A stretch of 64,000 bases of DNA, from positions 65,290-129,289 of the forward strand of contig CAYOZJ010000003.1 in the NCBI GenBank assembly GCA_964408485.1. Reading direction: 5' to 3'. The notes beneath the pieces were generated by a model. The model did not search any database and was not told where the DNA came from. It saw only the letters and a program-made list of their open reading frames with translations. Within the stretch, counting starts at the first letter, position 1; every line of letters starts with the position of its first letter. Made by a program: the position numbers and the translations under genes. This DNA is from an uncultured Gammaproteobacteria bacterium. Lineage in GTDB: Bacteria; Patescibacteriota; Microgenomatia; Levybacterales; UBA12049. Shown piece after piece: positions 10,245-63,475 of this stretch.

Positions 10245-10332
10245 CTTGTCATTCTGGCACTCGATTCAGTACTTGCTTCGCCGAAGCGGCGCTTTCCAGA
10301 ATCTGGATTCCTGCCTTCGCAGGAATGACACT
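10245..10332. repeat. MITE-like palindromic repeat, GTCATTC...GAATGAC family, copy R1
   Basis: Reads gtcattctggcac...ccagaatctggattcctgccttcgcaggaatgacac; nested hairpins; shares the cttcgccgaagcgg motif with copy R5. Confidence 0.6.
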
Positions 10333-13447: not shown

Positions 13448-14266
13448 TTATTCTACTACTTTTCGTAGGCTTTCCACTTCTTTTTTTGACAATTCTCTGT
13501 ATTCTCCTCGTTTTAAACTTCCTAATTTGAGTGGACCAAAGGCAATGCGTTGTAAATCAAGAAGTTGTATTCCCATTTCTTCACACATCCGTCGAATTTG
13601 TCTATTCCGTCCTTCGTGAAGGGTTATGTCTAGGGTTGTTTTTTCCTTGTCATTCCCGCGCAGGCGGGAATCCAGATGGTCTATTTTTGTTTTAGAACCT
13701 GGATCCCGCATCAAGTGCGGGATGACACGTTGTGAGTTCGGGATGACTGTTTTAACGACAGTCACTTCTGCAGGCATTGTTATTCCATCTTCTAAAATAA
13801 CACCTATGCGAAGTTGCTCAAGTTGTCCTTTTGTTGGTTGTCCTGCAACAAGAATTCGGTACAGTTTGGGTACATGGTAGCGAGGATGAATAAGCTGATG
13901 AGTTAACTCTCCATCATTTGTTAACAAAACAAGCCCATGAGAATCTTTATCCAGTCTTCCAACAGGATAAATTCTGTAGGGAGTATCAATAAGAGAAGTC
14001 ACTGTGTCACGCGCAAATTCGTCTGCAGTTGAGGAAATAATGCCAATTGGTTTATTTAATATATAGTAAACAAAGCCAGGCTTTTGTACTTTTTCACCAT
14101 TTATCAAAACAAGTTGCTTACTACCTACCCGGATTCCAGATTCTGTTACTCGTTTGCCGTCAATAGTAACGTCATTATTTTTCAAAAATGACTTTACCCC
14201 TCGCCGGGAAATTATCCCAGCATTAGCTAAAAATTTATCCAAGCGGATTTTTATATCTTGCTGCAC
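13448..14266 (-). CDS. RluB/RsuA-family pseudouridine synthase (S4 domain plus catalytic domain) carrying a 35-aa in-frame insertion
   Basis: S4 region RLDKFLANAGIISRR, catalytic PVGRLDKDSHGLVLLTNDG, C-terminal LHEGRNRQIRRMCE; GTG start; the insertion IPNSQRVIPHLMRDPGSKTKIDHLDSRLRGNDKEK is encoded by repeat copy R2. Confidence 0.8.
   Translation of the reverse strand: MQQDIKIRLDKFLANAGIISRRGVKSFLKNNDVTIDGKRVTESGIRVGSKQLVLINGEKVQKPGFVYYILNKPIGIISSTADEFARDTVTSLIDTPYRIYPVGRLDKDSHGLVLLTNDGELTHQLIHPRYHVPKLYRILVAGQPTKGQLEQLRIGVILEDGITMPAEVTVVKTVIPNSQRVIPHLMRDPGSKTKIDHLDSRLRGNDKEKTTLDITLHEGRNRQIRRMCEEMGIQLLDLQRIAFGPLKLGSLKRGEYRELSKKEVESLRKVVE
13649..13747. repeat. MITE-like palindromic repeat copy R2, lying in-frame inside the pseudouridine synthase gene
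   Basis: Reads gtcattcccgcgcaggcgggaatccagatgg...cctggatcccgcatcaagtgcgggatgacacgttgtgagttcgggatgac; three hairpins; the insertion spans codons 175-209. Confidence 0.65.
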
Positions 14267-23449: not shown

Positions 23450-23523
23450 GGATCTGTAGTTCAGTTGGTTAGAACGTTCGATTCACATTCGAAAGGTCAG
23501 AGGTTCGAGTCCTCTCAGGTCCA
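23450..23523 (+). tRNA. tRNA-Val (anticodon CAC); CCA not encoded
   Basis: Hand-folded: acceptor GGATCTG/CAGGTCC, D-arm GTTC-AGTTGGTTA-GAAC, anticodon arm TTCGA-TTCACAT-TCGAA, T-arm AGAGG-TTCGAGT-CCTCT. Confidence 0.8.
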
Positions 23524-23529
23524 CTGAAA

Positions 23530-23563
23530 AAGTTTTTTGCCCTTGGGCAAGAAACTTTTTATT
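23530..23563 (+). terminator. rho-independent terminator-like hairpin after tRNA-Val
   Basis: agttttttgccc ttg ggcaagaaact forms a 12-bp stem with one mismatch, followed by TTTTTATT. Confidence 0.5.
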
Positions 23564-23645
23564 AGCACTTAGGACTCGAATGGCGGACTGAAGCGAAGCG
23601 TAAGGAGCCGGGGTCGCGAGGGTCGCCGCTGCGACAACTTGTGAC

Positions 23646-23665
23646 CGAGTCCTCTCAGGTCCACT
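23646..23665 (+). repeat. 20-bp perfect direct repeat of the tRNA-Val 3' end (CGAGTCCTCTCAGGTCCACT); att-like
   Basis: Identical to 23506-23525 within the tRNA; the copies are separated by the terminator hairpin and a GC-rich structured segment (23566-23640) containing a gaagcgaagcg motif. Confidence 0.65.
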
Positions 23666-23733
23666 TGTCTCAGGCTTTCCGCCGTAGTTTTAGCAAAGGA
23701 GGATTCGAGGCCTGATTGGTCCACAGAAAGCTA

Positions 23734-24231
23734 TTATGTTTTGGGATTAGGTTTCTTACCCCGTTTCCCTGGCAAGTCATAGTCCCTTCGTAGCCTATAC
23801 CTTGTTGTCGGAGGCATAGGCGTGGTGTTGACGAAGGCTGCTCTTTCATCCTGAGGAAGTGCGTCTAGTGCATTGTGCAATCTTTGGATTTCTCCTCTTT
23901 TGGGTAGTCCAGGCGGTTTGGGAGTAAATCCATATTCCCTAAGTAACCTTGTTCTTAGGGTGGAAGGAGCATGCGCACTATAAATATATGCCTCTTTTTC
24001 ATCTTGAGGAAGTGCATCTAGCGTTTCTCGCAATTCTTGGGTTTTCCCCCTTCTCGGGCTACCCCTTCTTGGCCTAACATCAATCTCATATTGTCTACTT
24101 AACCTTCTTCTGGTCTCATGATGCAATGGAAGTGTAGCAAGTATTTGTCTTCTTTCATCCTCTGATTTTCCAACAAGAAGTGCCTCAGCCTCGCTTTTAG
24201 ACATATATGGAGATTCAAGATTATCTGTCAT
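23734..24231 (-). CDS. hypothetical basic protein with two internal ~45-aa repeats
   Basis: Repeats ELRETLDALPQDEKEAY...LRTRLLREYGF and RLHNALDALPQDERAAF...RYRLRRDYDL; TATAAT 7 nt upstream of the ATG. Confidence 0.4.
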   Translation of the reverse strand: MTDNLESPYMSKSEAEALLVGKSEDERRQILATLPLHHETRRRLSRQYEIDVRPRRGSPRRGKTQELRETLDALPQDEKEAYIYSAHAPSTLRTRLLREYGFTPKPPGLPKRGEIQRLHNALDALPQDERAAFVNTTPMPPTTRYRLRRDYDLPGKRGKKPNPKT

Positions 24232-24303
24232 TTTGGGAATTATACTTCACCCATAATGTTGTTGCAACAAACGTTAAAGATAATTTACGATTGAATCCAA
24301 ATA

Positions 24304-24375
24304 TCCATAAGAGTTCAGTTGGTAGAGGCTTCATTCACATTGAAGAGGTCTCAGGTTCGAGTTCTGATGGGACCA
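24304..24375 (+). tRNA. tRNA-like sequence, Val-like (CAC anticodon loop); the 5' acceptor strand cannot be paired, so this may be a pseudo or partial tRNA
   Basis: D-loop GTTCAGTTGGTAGAGG, anticodon arm CTTCA-TTCACAT-TGAAG, T-arm TCAGG-TTCGAGT-TCTGA, 3' acceptor TGGGACC-A. The stems differ from the tRNA at 23450 by compensatory changes, but there is no complementary 5' strand. Confidence 0.3.
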
Positions 24376-24377
24376 CA

Positions 24378-50288: not shown

Positions 50289-50325
50289 AGTTTTATTGCA
50301 TAACCAGGCGCAGGATTGTGTCTAG

Positions 50326-50398
50326 AGCCGATGGTGAGGATCGAACTCACTACCTACGCTTTACGAAAGCGCCGCTCTGCCAATTGAGCTACATCGGC
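50326..50398 (-). tRNA. tRNA-Thr (anticodon CGT); CCA not encoded
   Basis: Minus-strand fold: acceptor GCCGATG/CATCGGC, D-arm GCTC-AATTGGCA-GAGC, anticodon arm GCGCT-TTCGTAA-AGCGT, T-arm GTGAG-TTCGATC-CTCAC. Confidence 0.85.
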
Positions 50399-50456
50399 AC
50401 TTTCTTATTATATAGTATTCTACTTTTAAGATCATGTCTAGATTTTTATCTTACTC

Positions 50457-51211
50457 CCGATATGCATACCTATTCCATCTCCGAAGTGGATTAGGTTGAC
50501 ACATCGGGAATTTGATGTTTAGCTAAAGTCATGCCATATAGACAAACGGTTTTGGCAACTGGAGAGTTTTACCATATTTTTAATAGAGGTGTAGCAAGGA
50601 TGCCAACTTTTGTTACCTCTCGGGATTATAGTAGGTTTACTCAAGCACTCCAGTATTATATGAATGCGAATGCCAAACCAAAGTTCTCTGCTGCACACGA
50701 ACTATCTATTTTACATTCAGCAACAAAAAATTTAATTGATATTATTGCGTATTGTCTGATGCCAAATCATTTTCATCTATTGTTAAAACAAAAGACTGAG
50801 AATGGAATCTCTCAATATATGAAAAATATTAGCATAAGTTATACAAAATATTTCAACATTAAAAATGATAGAGTAGGTCCATTGTTTCAAGGTGCATTTA
50901 AGGCTGTTCGTATTGAAACAACTGAGCAGTTACTTCATGTGCATAGGTATATTCACATAAATCCAACAGTTGGTTTTGTAACGAAATCCTTAGAGGATTA
51001 TCCATGGTCGTCATTCCATGAGTATGCAAAGAGGAAAATTGGTTTTTGTGAGAAAGAGCTAATTCTAAGTAATTTTTCAAATCCTAAACAATATCGACAG
51101 TTTCTTTTGGATCAGGAAGATTATGGAAAACAACTTAAAGGTATACAGCATCTTCTCCTTGATCTAGAGAAATAATTCCGATGTGCGAAGCTGTTCCATC
51201 TCCGAAGTGGA
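50457..51211 (+). mobile_element. IS200/IS605-family-like minimal element: Y1 (HUH) transposase flanked by 34-bp imperfect direct repeats, each with a TTCCA-TCTCCGAAG-TGGAA hairpin
   Basis: Left repeat 50457-50490 ccgatatgcatacctattccatctccgaagtgga; right repeat 51178-51211 ccgatgtgcgaagctgttccatctccgaagtgga; both in the same orientation, as expected for IS200 left and right ends. Confidence 0.6.
50531..51175 (+). CDS. tnpA: IS200-like / REP-associated tyrosine (Y1, HUH) transposase
   Basis: HUH motif CLMPNHFHLLL, catalytic-Tyr region HVHRYIHINP, and the YPWSS motif typical of the RAYT/COG1943 group. Confidence 0.75.
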   Translation: MPYRQTVLATGEFYHIFNRGVARMPTFVTSRDYSRFTQALQYYMNANAKPKFSAAHELSILHSATKNLIDIIAYCLMPNHFHLLLKQKTENGISQYMKNISISYTKYFNIKNDRVGPLFQGAFKAVRIETTEQLLHVHRYIHINPTVGFVTKSLEDYPWSSFHEYAKRKIGFCEKELILSNFSNPKQYRQFLLDQEDYGKQLKGIQHLLLDLEK

Positions 51212-53868: not shown

Positions 53869-54987
53869 ATGCAAAATCTTTGGCAGACACTTCCTAAGCC
53901 TATTTTTTCTTTGGCTCCGATGGAGGATGTAACAGATACTGTCCTTCGCCAAATCTTTTGTATTACTGGTAAGCCAGATGTTTTCTTTACAGAGTTTACT
54001 AATGTCGATGGAATACAGTCTCAGGGTCACGACGTTGTTGCAAGGCGCCTTCAATTTACTAATACCGAACATCCAATCGTTGCACAGATTTGGGGTATGA
54101 TTCCGGAGAATTTTTATAAGACAGCAAAAGACTTAGTAGAAAGAGGATTTGATGGAATAGATATAAATATGGGGTGTCCCCAGCATGATGTAACAAGTCA
54201 TGGTGCATGTAGTGCGCTTATTAAAAATCCTTCCCTTGCTCAGGAAATAATCCAGGCCACAAAAGAGGGAGCCCATTCGACAAGTTCAGAACAAACACAA
54301 AACTTACCCGTTAGTGTTAAGACAAGAATTGGATTTAAAACAATTGCAACAGATGAATGGATAGGATTTTTACTCGGGCAAAAATTGAGTCTTATTACTG
54401 TTCATGGTCGTACAGCGGCAGAAATGTCTAAAGTTCCGGCTCATTGGGATGAAATTGGCAATGCTGTAAGGTTGAGAGATGAATTTGAAAAGAAAAACGC
54501 CCTCACCCTTGACCCTCCCGCGCTTGTCAAGCAAGCAGCCTCCCTCACTTCGTTCAGTCCGGCCCCAGAGGGCGAGGGAAAACATGGTAGTGCTTTGCAC
54601 ACACTAATAATGGGCAATGGAGATGTGCAAAGCTTAGAGGAAGCAAAAGAAAAAATTGCCACATATCATGTTGATGGCGTTATGATAGGTCGTGGAATAT
54701 TCCATAACCCATGGATTTTTGCAGGAATTGATCCCAAGACCAAATCGCTTCAGGAAAGACTTGAATTACTTAAGACTCATGTTGCGCTGTATCAAAAAAC
54801 ATGGGGAGCACAAAAATCATTCCAGATCTTAAAGAAATATTTTAAAGTGTACCTATCAGACTTTGATGGAGCAAATGAAATGAGGCAGCAATTTATGAAT
54901 ACTAACTCTTATGAGGAAGCTCTTTCCCTTGCTGACAAGTTCCTTTTGTCATCCCGGACTGCGCTGCTTCGGGGAAGCAAGTACTGA
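53869..54987 (+). CDS. dus: tRNA-dihydrouridine synthase (Dus) carrying an in-frame insertion of about 39 aa
   Basis: LAPMEDVTDTVLRQI, GIDINMGCPQ, GNGDV and GVMIGRG motifs; the inserted segment FEKKNALTLDPPALVKQAASLTSFSPAPEGEGKHGSALH is encoded by repeat copy R4. Confidence 0.85.
   Translation: MQNLWQTLPKPIFSLAPMEDVTDTVLRQIFCITGKPDVFFTEFTNVDGIQSQGHDVVARRLQFTNTEHPIVAQIWGMIPENFYKTAKDLVERGFDGIDINMGCPQHDVTSHGACSALIKNPSLAQEIIQATKEGAHSTSSEQTQNLPVSVKTRIGFKTIATDEWIGFLLGQKLSLITVHGRTAAEMSKVPAHWDEIGNAVRLRDEFEKKNALTLDPPALVKQAASLTSFSPAPEGEGKHGSALHTLIMGNGDVQSLEEAKEKIATYHVDGVMIGRGIFHNPWIFAGIDPKTKSLQERLELLKTHVALYQKTWGAQKSFQILKKYFKVYLSDFDGANEMRQQFMNTNSYEEALSLADKFLLSSRTALLRGSKY
54497..54580. repeat. palindromic repeat copy R4, in-frame inside dus
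   Basis: gccctcacccttgaccctcccgcgcttgtcaagcaagcagcctccctcacttcgttcagtccggccccagagggcgaggg has outer inverted arms CCCTCACCC/GGGCGAGGG and shares cttcacttcgtt(c/t)ag with copies R5 and R6. Confidence 0.55.
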
Positions 54988-55014
54988 GTCGAGTGATCCG
55001 GGATCAAGGAATTA

Positions 55015-55107
55015 GATTCTTCACTTCGTTCAGAATGACGAGAAGACTGGATTTCCCCCAAGGGGATTAGCTTCGCCGAAGCGGTCCCGCCCTGCGCGGG
55101 AATGACT
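55015..55107. repeat. MITE-like repeat copy R5 (composite)
   Basis: cttcacttcgttcagaatgac...gcttcgccgaagcgg...cccgccctgcgcgggaatgac combines the motifs seen in R1, R2, R4 and R6. Confidence 0.55.
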
Positions 55108-55156
55108 GTTTGTTTTTATTCTGTTACTCTAGCACTCAGATGAATGCTGTGCCAAT

Positions 55157-55191: not shown

Positions 55192-55608
55192 ATGAAACAA
55201 GGTGTTGCTGTTGGTGCATTTATTCAAAATAGTAAAAAAGAATTTTTAGTTGTTAAGCGGTCTGACTCAGATGAGTACATGGCAGGTAAATGGGAATTAC
55301 CGGGAGGCGGTATCGAAGACGAAGAGCCTCAGGAGGGACTGACGAGAGAAGTAAAAGAAGAAACAGGTCTTGATATTCTGGCTCTGAAGCCACTTTCGGT
55401 TGATGCGTATATCTATGACAAAGGACTCGAGCCAATTCAAAGAATTGAAATTACCTTTTTATGTTCAATCAAGGCTACAGAGAAAATACATTTAAGTCCC
55501 GAACACTCTGCGTACCAGTGGATTACGCCTGATGGAGTGAATGAATTTGATTTTTCTGACTATATGCTAAATGTCATTAAAAAGTCTTTAGAAGCTCTTG
55601 AGCAATAA
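55192..55608 (+). CDS. NUDIX hydrolase
   Basis: Nudix box GKWELPGGGIEDEEPQEGLTREVKEETGL. Confidence 0.85.
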   Translation: MKQGVAVGAFIQNSKKEFLVVKRSDSDEYMAGKWELPGGGIEDEEPQEGLTREVKEETGLDILALKPLSVDAYIYDKGLEPIQRIEITFLCSIKATEKIHLSPEHSAYQWITPDGVNEFDFSDYMLNVIKKSLEALEQ

Positions 55609-55654
55609 ATTTGTTCAGAGAAATAGTCTAGCAATCGCAGTCCATGAAATTACC

Positions 55655-55730
55655 GTCCTGGCCTGTCGGCACTAAAGTGCGCAGGCAAGCTCCTTCACTT
55701 CGTTTGTCCGCTCCTTTCTCCCGCCAAGGT
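55655..55730. repeat. repeat copy R6 (ctccttcacttcgtttgtcc motif)
   Basis: Shares the cttcacttcgtt core with R4 and R5; intergenic between nudix and lexA. Confidence 0.4.
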
Positions 55731-55900
55731 GCATTTTCAAAAATAGTTGTCTTATCCAGTCAAAAGTAATGCGAAATTCTGGTTCGGTGCTTTTACTGCG
55801 CTCTAATTTAGGCAAAAGAGAAGTCTCCCATCCGTTTCCTGAAAAAGAGGGAGTAAAGCTAACAACTGTGTTTTTTAAATTTATTTCTTCCATATATTTT

Positions 55901-55957
55901 GTCATTCTGGCTTGTCCAGAATCTAGATCCTGGATGCGCTACGCTTACCAGGATGAC
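55901..55957. repeat. MITE-like repeat copy R7, immediately 3' of lexA
   Basis: gtcattctggcttgtccagaatctagatcctggatgcgctacgcttaccaggatgac: two hairpins (attctgg/ccagaat and atcctgg/ccaggat) and GTCAT/ATGAC termini; the first 37 nt are identical to R8. Confidence 0.7.
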
Positions 55958-55964
55958 GGTTAAA

Positions 55965-63390: not shown

Positions 63391-63399
63391 ACTTAAAGT

Positions 63400-63468
63400 G
63401 TCATTCTGGCTTGTCCAGAATCTAGATCCTGGATGCCTCCACGCTTCGCTCTGAGTTACCAGGATGAC
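63400..63468. repeat. MITE-like repeat copy R8, in the atpF-atpH intergenic region
   Basis: gtcattctggcttgtccagaatctagatcctggatgcctccacgcttcgctctgagttaccaggatgac is near-identical to R7, with an extra cacgcttcgctctgag segment. Confidence 0.7.
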
Positions 63469-63475
63469 GAAAAAA

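What the first reader, a model, noticed from the sequence alone, without database searches (positions are those of the whole stretch)
54484..54600. Second in-frame repeat insertion, inside tRNA-dihydrouridine synthase (dus)
Between the conserved AHWDEIGNAVRLRDE and TLIMGNGDV blocks, Dus carries about 39 extra residues (FEKKNALTLDPPALVKQAASLTSFSPAPEGEGKHGSALH). These are encoded by a palindromic element with CCCTCACCC...GGGCGAGGG arms that also contains the cttcacttcgttcag module shared with R5 (55015) and R6 (55691). Two independent housekeeping genes with in-frame repeat-derived inserts, in a 64 kb window, argue for a systematic process rather than coincidence.
Basis: partly seen in the sequence, partly recalled or inferred. 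Interest (0 to 1): 0.7.

Follow-up and report, generated by a model that had tools for sequence, protein, structure and literature searches.

The report
Nested palindromic-repeat insert inside dus gene
A tRNA-modifying enzyme gene (dus) in a candidate-phyla-radiation bacterium carries a 105-base, GC-rich, in-frame insert made of two small palindromic repeat elements, one inside the other; this is the pattern known from Rickettsia, seen here in a new bacterial group.

Summary
The Dus ORF (53869-54987) has 35 extra residues, N210-H244 (window 54496-54600). These are absent from 108 of 120 close homologs and from solved Dus structures. The segment is 60% GC against 40% for the rest of the gene, and it is stop-free in 4 of 6 frames.

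It is two nested elements, not one palindrome:
- **Outer element:** a roughly 60-nt C-tract hairpin (CCCTCACCC / CCCTCNCCC / GGGNGAGGG). The same family sits at the same Dus loop in other Patescibacteria, in both orientations and in two frames.
- **Inner element:** 45 nt, splitting the outer hairpin. Its core (CTTGTCAAGCAAGC...TCCYTCACTTCGTTCAGTCCG) recurs almost identically in unrelated low-GC metagenome contigs, and in the window at R6 and at 23581.

AlphaFold puts the insert in a low-confidence alpha-to-beta loop on the face of the TIM barrel opposite the catalytic face. Other lineages carry canonical CGTC-tagged REPs at this loop and at a second one. In this window, a REP also supplies the last 13 Dus codons and the stop codon. 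A REP dimer lies in-frame in a pseudouridine synthase.

This matches Rickettsia palindromic elements and intragenic REPs in a new host phylum. How the elements move was not shown. Novelty: new member of a known kind. Interest is moderate.

The parts
53869..54987 (+). dus (tRNA-dihydrouridine synthase) ORF, 372 aa. It appears intact and all family-invariant residues are present.
   Evidence: Pfam PF01207, E 4.5e-49. Alignment invariants include the NMGCP Cys103, K151, H179 and R181. AF2 model has pLDDT 92.7. Top Foldseek PDB hits are Dus structures 1vhn, 3b0p, 6ei9 and 4yco.
54496..54600 (+). Whole in-frame insert: 105 nt, 35 codons (N210-H244), peptide NALTLDPPALVKQAASLTSFSPAPEGEGKHGSALH.
   Evidence: Absent from 108 of 120 homologs and from PDB Dus structures. 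GC is 0.60 against 0.40 for the rest of the gene; 4 of 6 frames are open. pLDDT is 70/61/48 across residues 211-240.
54499..54517 (+). Outer element, left part: GCCCTCACCC TTG ACCCTC. This is the extra C-tract arm plus the 5' half of the hairpin's left arm.
   Evidence: Aligns with L002 (the P0015 locus), GCCCTCACCCCAAACCCTC. The same architecture is seen in L011, L086, L024, L085 (reverse orientation), L075 and L071.
54518..54562 (+). Inner nested element, 45 nt (15 codons): CCGCGCTTGTCAAGCAAGCAGCCTCCCTCACTTCGTTCAGTCCGG. It is REP-related and carries the TCACTTCGTTCAG module.
   Evidence: Exactly 45 columns are gapped in L002, which has the outer element alone. Near-identical copies occur in unrelated low-GC contigs L108 (about 40 of 42 nt), L128, L167 and L157. 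The core is shared with R5 and R6.
54563..54578 (+). Outer element, right part: the rest of the left arm, the loop and the right arm (CCCC AGA GGGCGAGGG).
   Evidence: Alignment to L002, TCCCAAAGGGCGAGGG. With the inner element removed in silico, the outer element folds into a hairpin at -9.0 kcal/mol, z -2.9.
54579..54600 (+). 3' tail of the outer element (AAAACATGGTAGTGCTTTGCAC, encoding KHGSALH).
   Evidence: Shared with L002 (GATCAAGGAGCTGCTTTGCAT, encoding DQGAALH) and with P0050 (DHGGASH), but absent from homologs that lack the insert.
54274..54303 (+). Second variable loop (site 1): HSTSSEQTQN replaces the baseline G-E, adding 8 residues. It is probably an old, AT-decayed remnant of an RSASSGQA-type insert.
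   Evidence: About 20 of 120 homologs carry 4-30 extra residues here. P0001 has GTCCGTTCGGCAAGCTCAGGACAAG. P0011/L215 has a canonical CGTC-REP dimer at this site. For the window copy itself, a repeat origin is inferred, not shown.
54947..55008 (+). Long-loop CGTC-tagged REP (TGTCATCCCGGA...TCCGGGATCAAG) that supplies the last 13 Dus codons (LSSRTALLRGSKY) and the stop codon.
   Evidence: Tagged-hairpin scan. It is 84% complementary to 10258-10302 (pair I1). Homologs end about 10 residues earlier.
55012..55040 (-). R5: a CGTC-tagged REP unit, CGTCATTCTGAACGAAGTGAAGAATC, which carries the shared module.
   Evidence: The same REP type, as dimers, is widespread in metagenome contigs.
55681..55714 (+). 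R6: an intergenic copy of the inner-element family (GCAGGCAAGCTCCTTCACTTCGTTTGTCCGCTCC).
23581..23609 (-). Another copy of the inner-family core, read on the opposite strand (TGGCGGACTGAAGCGAAGCGTAAGGAGCC).
   Evidence: Read directly from the sequence and compared by eye with the reverse complements of L128 and L167. No alignment was run.
13648..13727 (-). Companion case: a CGTC-REP dimer in-frame inside a pseudouridine synthase ORF of the RsuA/RluF family (peptide ...VIPHLMRDPGSKTKIDHLDSRLRGND...).
   Evidence: Solved RluF and RluE structures lack about 36 residues at this point.

Best explanation
The segment is the translated remnant of two successive insertions of small, non-autonomous, hairpin-forming repeat elements (REP/MITE-like) into the dus coding sequence.

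**Order of events (inferred).** First, a roughly 60-nt C-tract hairpin element landed in the codons of the loop between helix 193-212 and strand 246-250. This element has three arms (CCCTCACCC, CCCTCNCCC, GGGNGAGGG) plus a short tail. Later, a 45-nt REP-related element landed inside the left arm of that hairpin and destroyed the hairpin.

**Why the gene survived.** Both pieces are multiples of three and stop-free in the Dus frame, so the ORF stayed intact. The 35 extra residues are read through as a flexible Pro/Ala/Ser/Gly-rich loop. The loop lies on the alpha-to-beta face of the (beta/alpha)8 barrel. That is the face opposite the C-terminal strand ends that carry the FMN and catalytic residues.

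**Why it recurs.** Survival is a selection filter. GC-rich elements in an AT-rich genome rarely contain stop codons, and only copies in permissive surface loops persist. Sequence that has already been inserted is itself a safe place for the next insertion, which explains the nesting and the hot-spot pattern.

**What is shown:** that the segment is an insertion, that it is composite, that both parts belong to dispersed repeat families, and its predicted structural position.

**What is inferred:** the order of events, that the insert is translated and tolerated rather than functional, and the means of mobilisation. My best guess for mobilisation is single-strand hairpin transposition by a trans-acting HUH/Y1 enzyme. 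I put that at about 25%.
For: - **It is an insertion.** The interval is 20 aa in 108 of 120 homologs and 55 aa here. The closest homologs P0001, P0002 and P0006 are 80-84% identical outside the insert and have no counterpart to it. Solved Dus structures lack it.
- **It has foreign composition.** GC is 0.60 against 0.40 for the rest of the gene, and 4 of 6 frames are open.
- **It is nested.** L002/P0015 has the outer element alone at the same site, and the window differs by exactly 45 nt inside the hairpin arm. The outer element without the inner one folds at z -2.9, and the intact L011 copy at z -2.6.
- **The outer family recurs.** It appears in L011 (Doudnabacteria, same site), L086, L085 (reverse orientation), and L024 and L019 (a third site). 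Intergenic copies occur in the Gastranaerophilales/Melainabacteria locus L075 (three copies) and the cyanobacterial locus L071.
- **The inner family recurs.** The metagenome scan gave more than 120 hits. L108, L128, L167 and L157 also match 16 further flanking bases beyond the seed pattern.
- **It sits in a disordered surface loop.** The model has pLDDT 92.7 overall, but 48-70 in the insert, which lies between H193-212 and E246-250.
- **The same loops are hit in other lineages.** Canonical CGTC REPs occupy them in L214 and L215. Site-2 inserts are scattered across the NJ tree.
- **The insert diverges faster than the rest of the protein.** Against P0050 it is 24/35 (69%) identical, compared with 80% outside the insert.
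- **Intragenic REPs and RPEs are a known phenomenon** (PMC3733652, PMC10969869).
Against: - No empty or filled site polymorphism was seen within one population, and no target-site duplication was found. The exact element ends and the insertion event itself are therefore reconstructed, not observed.
- The composite does not fold better than shuffled sequence (z -0.7 to -0.8). The inner element has neither a CGTC tag nor a complementary stem, so it is a partial or decayed copy.
- Only one outer-type copy exists in the 64-kb window. The outer family was not found in 251 kb of low-GC metagenome loci, so its copy number in this genome is unknown.
- WIN, P0050 and P0015 share the outer element and its tail but do not group together on the NJ tree. 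That requires repeated loss, gene conversion, or repeated insertion at the same place.
- Translation of the insert was not tested.
- The source genome was not recovered, so no genome-wide census was possible.
Confidence: 0.85

Rival explanations
1. The loop is a selected, functional addition to Dus, for example an extra tRNA- or partner-binding arm, or an mRNA hairpin with a regulatory role. On this view its repeat origin is incidental, or it was recruited.
For: - The nested insert is kept, 69% identical, in P0050, which is as diverged from the window protein as homologs that lack the insert.
- The same loops carry inserts in many lineages.
- On a crude count, GC-rich islands are about twice as dense in Dus genes as in their flanks: 0.86 against 0.44 per kb.
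- RNA-modification enzymes are recurrent hosts of REPs in other bacteria (PMC3733652).
Against: - Inserts at this site have unrelated sequences, lengths, frames and orientations.
- 108 of 120 homologs do without any insert here.
- The region is predicted to be disordered and lies on the non-catalytic face of the barrel.
- The insert evolves faster than the core of the protein.
- The mRNA segment is no more stable than shuffled sequence.
Confidence: 0.1
2. Ordinary lineage-specific indel growth, from slippage, local duplication or template switching that creates hairpins de novo, with no mobile repeat involved.
For: The outer element contains an internal direct repeat of its own arm (CCCTCACCC and CCCTCNCCC), a pattern template switching can produce. 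No transposition hallmarks such as a target-site duplication or terminal inverted repeats were found.
Against: Near-identical 40-nt copies of the inner element lie in unrelated contigs and elsewhere in the window. The outer architecture recurs in different genes, phyla, orientations and frames. The GC content is foreign to the gene.
Confidence: 0.03
3. Assembly artefact: a metagenome assembler joined reads through repeats and produced a chimeric dus.
For: The window comes from an uncultured Patescibacteria-type genome. Its exact Dus protein is not on record elsewhere.
Against: The insert keeps the reading frame. A homologous nested insert is present in an independent read set (P0050, from SRR5579872). 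The outer element at the same site appears in two further samples (L002 and L003).
Confidence: 0.02

Closest known systems
Rickettsia palindromic elements (RPEs; Ogata et al. 2000 and 2002, as summarised in PMC10969869)
   Same: Both are short palindromic repeats found in intergenic DNA and also inside housekeeping ORFs. Both are inserted in-frame, read through, and placed where the fold tolerates them. In both cases the host is a small, AT-rich, host-dependent genome.
   Different: The host is Patescibacteria/CPR, not Rickettsia. The elements here are shorter (45-60 nt, against about 100-150 bp for RPE-1). No sequence homology to RPE consensus sequences was tested. Here two elements are nested, and the same loop is hit repeatedly in many lineages.
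CGTC-tagged REPs, including intragenic REPs (Di Nocera et al. 2013, PMC3733652; these include RPE-4, RPE-6 and Neisseria dRS3)
   Same: The window's units at 13648-13727, 10247-10330, 55900-55958 and 63399-63469 match the published definition: a TGTC/CGTC tag, an 8-9 bp stem starting with AT, a short loop and a CCAG tail, arranged as dimers. That paper also reports REPs inside genes, including tRNA pseudouridine synthase genes. The TCACTTCGTTC module in the Dus insert is the core of one widespread REP of this type.
   Different: The Dus inner element has lost, or never had, the tag and the complementary stem. The Dus outer element belongs to a different, untagged C-tract hairpin family. CPR hosts were not among the phyla surveyed in that study.
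Bacterial MITEs that make in-frame fusions (Coxiella QMITEs, intragenic ERIC and BOX elements; PMC10969869, PMC5896051)
   Same: They are small, non-autonomous, dispersed, and sometimes translated as part of host proteins.
   Different: No terminal inverted repeats or target-site duplication could be defined for the Dus elements, and no parent IS was identified.
REP/RAYT (REPIN) systems and IS200/IS605 hairpin transposition
   Same: Both involve hairpin repeats together with a Y1/HUH transposase gene in the same genome. The window encodes one at 50531-51175, with HUH (HFH) and RYIH motifs.
   Different: The repeats flanking that gene (50452-50490 and 51173-51211) are not the families found in dus. 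There is no GTAG tag. The NCBIfam RAYT model scores below its cutoff (53.8 against 80 bits). The literature states that CGTC REPs have no known dedicated transposase.
GC-rich hairpin elements in AT-rich mitochondrial genomes (yeast GC clusters, Allomyces double-hairpin elements). This comparison is from my own knowledge and was not checked here.
   Same: GC-rich palindromes spread in AT-rich genomes and sometimes sit in-frame in protein genes.
   Different: These are organellar systems with unrelated sequences.

Membership tests
Rickettsia palindromic elements (RPE) | Dispersed repeat family with copies both in intergenic DNA and inside ORFs | tested here: met
   The inner family has intergenic copies at R6 and 23581 in the window and in L108, L128, L167 and L157. 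The outer family occurs in Dus genes and in intergenic DNA in L075, L071 and upstream in L086.
Rickettsia palindromic elements (RPE) | In-frame insertion that preserves the host ORF | tested here: met
   The insert is 105 nt (60 + 45) and the ORF is continuous, with all invariant residues present.
Rickettsia palindromic elements (RPE) | Insert lies at the protein surface, away from the active site | tested here: met
   In the AF2 model the insert is a low-pLDDT loop between H193-212 and E246-250, which is an alpha-to-beta loop. That this is the non-catalytic face follows from general TIM-barrel topology, so it is an inference.
Rickettsia palindromic elements (RPE) | Sequence homology to the RPE-1 to RPE-10 consensus sequences; Rickettsia host | not tested
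The host here is a Patescibacteria-type genome (source names), so it is not a member in the taxonomic sense.
CGTC-tagged REPs (PMC3733652) | Terminal CGTC/TGTC tag next to the hairpin | tested here: not met
   The Dus inner element reads CCGG where the tag would be, and the outer element has no tag. The feature is met by R5, by 54947-55008 and by 13648-13727.
CGTC-tagged REPs (PMC3733652) | Complementary 8-9 bp stem starting with AT, short loop, CCA-type tail | tested here: not met
   The inner element forms only a 5-bp GCTTG/CAAGC hairpin (z -1.5). The feature is met exactly by TGTC-ATTCCCGC-GCAG-GCGGGAAT-CCAG at 13648-13675.
CGTC-tagged REPs (PMC3733652) | Shares the core sequence of a recognised REP subfamily | tested here: met
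   TCACTTCGTTCAG is identical to the core of GATCCYTCACTTCGTTCRGGATGACA REP dimers found in many contigs, and to R5.
MITE | Terminal inverted repeats and a target-site duplication | tested here: inconclusive
   No duplication of 3 bp or more is visible at either junction. Without an empty site in a close relative, the ends cannot be fixed.
REP/RAYT (REPIN) | RAYT gene flanked by the same REPs that populate the genome | tested here: not met
   A Y1 transposase gene is present (PF01797, E 4.3e-9; NF047646 below cutoff). Its 39-nt flanking repeats occur only twice in the window and differ from the repeats in dus.
Intein / self-splicing intron | Splicing motifs, or a structured-RNA family match, and sufficient length | tested here: not met
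   Rfam gave no hit other than two tRNAs. At 105 nt and 35 aa the segment is too short for either. No intein motif search was run.

The most novel reading that the evidence does not exclude
The alpha-to-beta loops of Dus, and of other RNA-modification enzymes such as the pseudouridine synthase in this window, may be more than passively tolerant. They may be preferred landing pads for hairpin repeats across Patescibacteria. The cause could be a target preference of an unidentified single-strand (Y1/HUH-type) mobilisation system, or selection for new flexible loops in these enzymes. Either would make repeat capture a regular route of protein-loop evolution in CPR bacteria.
Probability: 0.12. Interest if true: 0.65.

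Novelty: new member of a known kind. Interest (0 to 1): 0.4.

Why it matters
This extends the 'selfish DNA inside protein-coding genes' phenomenon to the candidate phyla radiation. Until now it is best documented in Rickettsia and in a few REP-rich Proteobacteria and Verrucomicrobia.

It also gives a clean example of nested colonisation, and of the same protein loops being hit independently in many lineages by at least three repeat families.

There are practical consequences. Such inserts inflate and distort CPR protein alignments and annotations, and they split Pfam matches. Their six-frame translations show up as open frames across the repeats, which gene callers may report as spurious ORFs. 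The inserts also mark naturally permissive sites in the Dus TIM barrel.

My searches of the held literature found no report of REP-type repeats in CPR genomes or in Dus.

Tried and rejected
- **Folding the whole insert.** As DNA and as RNA it is no better than shuffled sequence (z -0.8 and -0.7). I dropped the idea of a single intact palindrome.
- **Rfam scan of the window.** It found only two tRNAs, so there is no intron or known RNA family.
- **Exact look-up of the window's Dus protein.** It is not on record. P0050 has no contig. The NCBI contig for P0121 was not returned. The source genome and a whole-genome census were therefore out of reach.
- **Genome-collection scan for Dus relatives.** It was still useful as an unbiased sample of CPR Dus loci.
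- **Protein word search with the 40-aa insert peptide.** It returned nothing, although P0050 shares six 5-mers with it. I treat this as uninformative.
- **Dus-exclusive targeting of the outer family.** A strict pattern found 5 of 6 hits inside Dus and none in 251 kb of other low-GC loci. A looser GC-island scan then found variants outside Dus, in L086 upstream, L021 and L024. I rejected exclusivity; only a crude twofold enrichment remains.
- **A link between the Y1 transposase's flanking hairpins and the Dus repeats.** They share only CGAAGTGRA, with 4 matches against 0.73 expected and 1 of 100 shuffles reaching that. This is too weak to use.
- **A stem in the inner family (GCGGGC/GUCCGC).** I considered it, but it is not conserved in the Dus copy or in L108.
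Full report
**Context.** The window is 37% GC. The closest relatives of its proteins are named Patescibacteria group, Levybacteria, Daviesbacteria or Curtissbacteria by their sources. It is therefore a candidate-phyla-radiation (CPR) type genome. ORF 53869-54987 (+, 372 aa) is a tRNA-dihydrouridine synthase. Pfam PF01207 matches at E 4.5e-49, but the match is split into two stretches. The locus is syntenic with two homolog loci, L001 and L084 (large protein, Dus, small ORF, S24 LexA-like).

**Checking the observation.** I aligned the protein with the 120 best homologs. The interval from AVxLR to GNGDV is exactly 20 residues in 108 of them and 55 in the window protein. The insert is therefore 35 residues, N210-H244, at window 54496-54600.
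- The nearest homologs, P0001, P0002 and P0006, are 80-84% identical outside the insert and have no counterpart to it.
- The solved Dus structures 1vhn and DusC 3w9z have 5-13 residues in this interval.
- The segment is 59.8% GC against 39.6% for the rest of the gene, and it is stop-free in four of six frames.
The 12-mer module occurs three times in the window against 0.30 expected.

**Anatomy.** A DNA alignment with L002 (the P0015 locus, seen in two samples) resolves the structure.
- L002 has, at the same codon position, AAGCCCTCACCCCAAACCCTC|TCCCAAAGGGCGAGGGAGATCAAGGAGCTGCTTTGCAT.
- The window has the same sequence, with exactly 45 extra bases at the bar: CCGCGCTTGTCAAGCAAGCAGCCTCCCTCACTTCGTTCAGTCCGG (54518-54562).
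- The insert is therefore an outer element (54499-54517 plus 54563-54600) interrupted by an inner one.
- The outer element is a 9-bp, 3-nt-loop hairpin (CCCTCNCCC / GGGNGAGGG), preceded by a third copy of the arm (CCCTCACCC) and followed by a short tail.
- Intact copies fold as expected: L011 at -10.3 kcal/mol (z -2.6), and the window copy with the inner element removed at -9.0 kcal/mol (z -2.9).
- The composite as it stands is no more stable than shuffled sequence.
GGGCGAGGG pairs with the split ACCCTC|CCC, not with CCCTCACCC.

**Both components are dispersed repeats.**
- *Outer family.* The same architecture occurs in other Dus genes. It is at the same loop in L086/P0113 (CCTCACCCTAACCCTTTCCTGAAAGGAGAGGG), in L011 (a Doudnabacteria MAG, only 47% identical, a different frame from L002), and in L085/P0006 (reverse orientation). 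It is at a third loop in L024 and L019.
- It also occurs in intergenic DNA: three copies in a Gastranaerophilales/Melainabacteria locus (L075), one in a cyanobacterial locus (L071), and one upstream of dus in L086.
- Many hits are canonical REP dimers of the form TGTCATCCCGAACGAAGTGAGGGATC...GATCCCTCACTTCGTTCGGGATGACA. This shows that the cttcacttcgttcag module is the core of a widespread REP.
- A subset from low-GC contigs (L108, L128, L167, L157) also matches the Dus inner element across 16 further bases beyond the seed. L108 is about 40 of 42 nt identical.
- In L128 and L167 this core lies inside a long-loop REP bounded by TGTCATCCTGAAC...GTTCRGRATGAC.
- Within the window, R6 (55681-55714) belongs to the same family. 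So, by eye, does 23581-23609 on the other strand.

**Structure.** An AlphaFold2 model built on 109 sequences has mean pLDDT 92.7 and pTM 0.89. The ten-residue blocks covering 211-240 drop to 70, 61 and 48.
- Foldseek against the PDB returns Dus structures first.
- The insert lies between helix 193-212 and strand 246-250, which makes it an alpha-to-beta loop.
- In (beta/alpha)8 barrels, catalytic and cofactor residues lie at the C-terminal ends of the strands. Here these are NMGCP after strand 96-101, K151, H179/R181, and GNGD after strand 246-250. Alpha-to-beta loops are on the opposite face.
- That the insert is remote from the FMN and tRNA sites is therefore an inference from topology. I did not measure a distance.
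- The second variable loop (site 1, residues 136-145) is also an alpha-to-beta loop, between H121-136 and E148-155.

**Recurrence.**
- Twelve of 120 homologs have inserts of 5-66 residues at site 2. About 20 have 4-30 extra residues at site 1. Carriers are scattered over a neighbour-joining tree built from the conserved columns.
- The inserts are unrelated to one another. L214/P0054 has three canonical CGTC-tagged REP units at site 2. L215/P0011 has a REP dimer at site 1, nested in an older RSASSGQA-type insert. L216/P0027 has a decayed REP-like pair.
- P0050 shares the window's nested insert (24 of 35 residues, against 80% identity elsewhere). It has a further 31 residues next to it, and another C-tract element nested at site 1.
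- This pattern fits frequent insertion, survival only in permissive loops, and reuse of already-inserted sequence as a safe target.
- WIN, P0050 and P0015 share the outer element and its tail but do not group together on the tree. Whether that reflects loss, gene conversion or repeated insertion remains open.

**Other cases in the window.** A scan for tagged hairpins found about 14 GC-rich units, by my count, of the type described by Di Nocera et al. (PMC3733652), in eight clusters. That type has a TGTC/CGTC tag, an 8-9 bp stem starting with AT, a short loop and a CCAG tail, usually as dimers.
- One dimer (13648-13727) is in-frame in a pseudouridine synthase ORF of the RsuA/RluF family. Solved RluF and RluE structures lack about 36 residues there.
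- One long-loop unit (54947-55008) provides the last 13 Dus codons and the stop codon. Homologs end about 10 residues earlier.

**Mechanism.** The way these elements move was not established.
- The window encodes a Y1/HUH transposase at 50531-51175 (PF01797, E 4.3e-9). The NCBIfam REP-associated tyrosine transposase model scores 53.8 bits, below its cutoff of 80. HFH and RYIH motifs are present.
- The gene is flanked by 39-nt direct repeats, each containing a hairpin. The same layout appears around a 55%-identical homolog.
- More than 4,000 relatives exist, many on very short contigs.
- Its flanking repeats are not the families found in dus, and the only shared string is a 9-mer. It is a candidate mobilising enzyme and nothing more.
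- The literature states that CGTC REPs lack a known dedicated transposase (PMC3733652).

**Comparison with known systems.** Functionally this matches Rickettsia palindromic elements and intragenic REPs (PMC10969869, PMC3733652). These are palindromic repeats inserted in-frame in housekeeping genes and tolerated at the protein surface.
- The window's tagged units meet the published definition of CGTC REPs.
- The two Dus elements do not. The inner one lacks both tag and stem, and the outer one belongs to another family. I do not file them as CGTC REPs, but as REP-related and as a C-tract hairpin repeat.
- My searches of the held library found no description of REP-type repeats in CPR genomes or in Dus.

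**Verdict.** Novelty: a new member of a known kind. Interest is moderate (0.4). The most novel reading still open is that these enzyme loops are preferred targets rather than merely tolerant ones. My small-sample tests neither establish nor exclude that.

Noticed in passing
window 50452-51211: A compact IS200/IS605-like or RAYT-like unit. It has a 214-aa Y1/HUH transposase gene (50531-51175; HFH and RYIH motifs) flanked by 39-nt direct repeats, each with a hairpin (50452-50490 and 51173-51211). It sits next to tRNA-Thr (50325-50398). A 55%-identical homolog has the same layout, and more than 4,000 relatives exist, mostly in Microgenomates-type CPR genomes.
   Followed up: partly
window 13640-13745 (- strand ORF 13448-14266): A pseudouridine synthase of the RsuA/RluF family carries a canonical CGTC-REP dimer in-frame (TGTCATTCCCGCGCAGGCGGGAATCCAG ... 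CTGGATCCCGCATCAAGTGCGGGATGACA). This adds about 36 residues that solved RluF and RluE structures lack.
   Followed up: partly
window 54947-55008: A long-loop REP overlaps the 3' end of dus and encodes its last 13 residues (LSSRTALLRGSKY) and the stop codon. It is an inverted copy (84% complementary) of the element at 10258-10302, and the stem sequences differ between the two copies while pairing is kept in each (ATTCTGG/CCAGAAT against ATCCCGGA/TCCGGGAT).
   Followed up: partly
window 23525-24376: After tRNA-Val (23450-23524) the 3' end of the tRNA is repeated. GAGTCCTCTCAGGTCCAC recurs at 23648-23665, preceded by GC-rich repeat material, and a 75%-similar copy of the tRNA 3' half lies at 24333-24376. 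Between them is a 165-aa ORF with a weak sigma-70 region 4 match (23734-24231). This looks like the scar or ends of an element integrated at the tRNA. Neither ARAGORN nor Rfam calls the extra copies.
   Followed up: no
window 55900-55937 and 63399-63436: A 38-nt exact repeat that forms the first unit, and the start of the second, of two REP dimers. The second units have the same stems (CATCCTGG/CCAGGATG) but different loop contents.
   Followed up: no
window 55192-55608: A NUDIX gene lies between dus and the 76-aa/LexA-like pair and is bracketed by repeat clusters (54947-55115 and 55650-55958). The syntenic locus L084 has no gene at this position, while L001 has a longer NUDIX gene there. This suggests repeat-associated gene gain, loss or replacement.
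   Followed up: no
L024 10100-10820, L011 10095-10702 (Dus genes of Nomurabacteria and Doudnabacteria MAGs): Single Dus genes carry several separate GC-rich hairpin inserts: about four in L024 and at least two in L011. Sites include one near the N-terminus (after ...GK|PD) and one in the linker after NPW(L/F)F. Dus therefore has at least four permissive sites.
   Followed up: partly
L091, L125, L138, L163, L173, L176, L189 (metagenome contigs, GC 0.32-0.41): A conserved stretch of about 110 nt that contains the same TCCTTCACTTCGTT core (…TTTTGTCATGGTTTTTGTAAAGCC…GCAAGCATAGCTCCTTCACTTCGTTCCGCTCCACCTCGACAGTCCGCTGCGC…) recurs nearly unchanged in seven low-GC contigs. It may be a longer element or a structured RNA. 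It was not examined.
   Followed up: no
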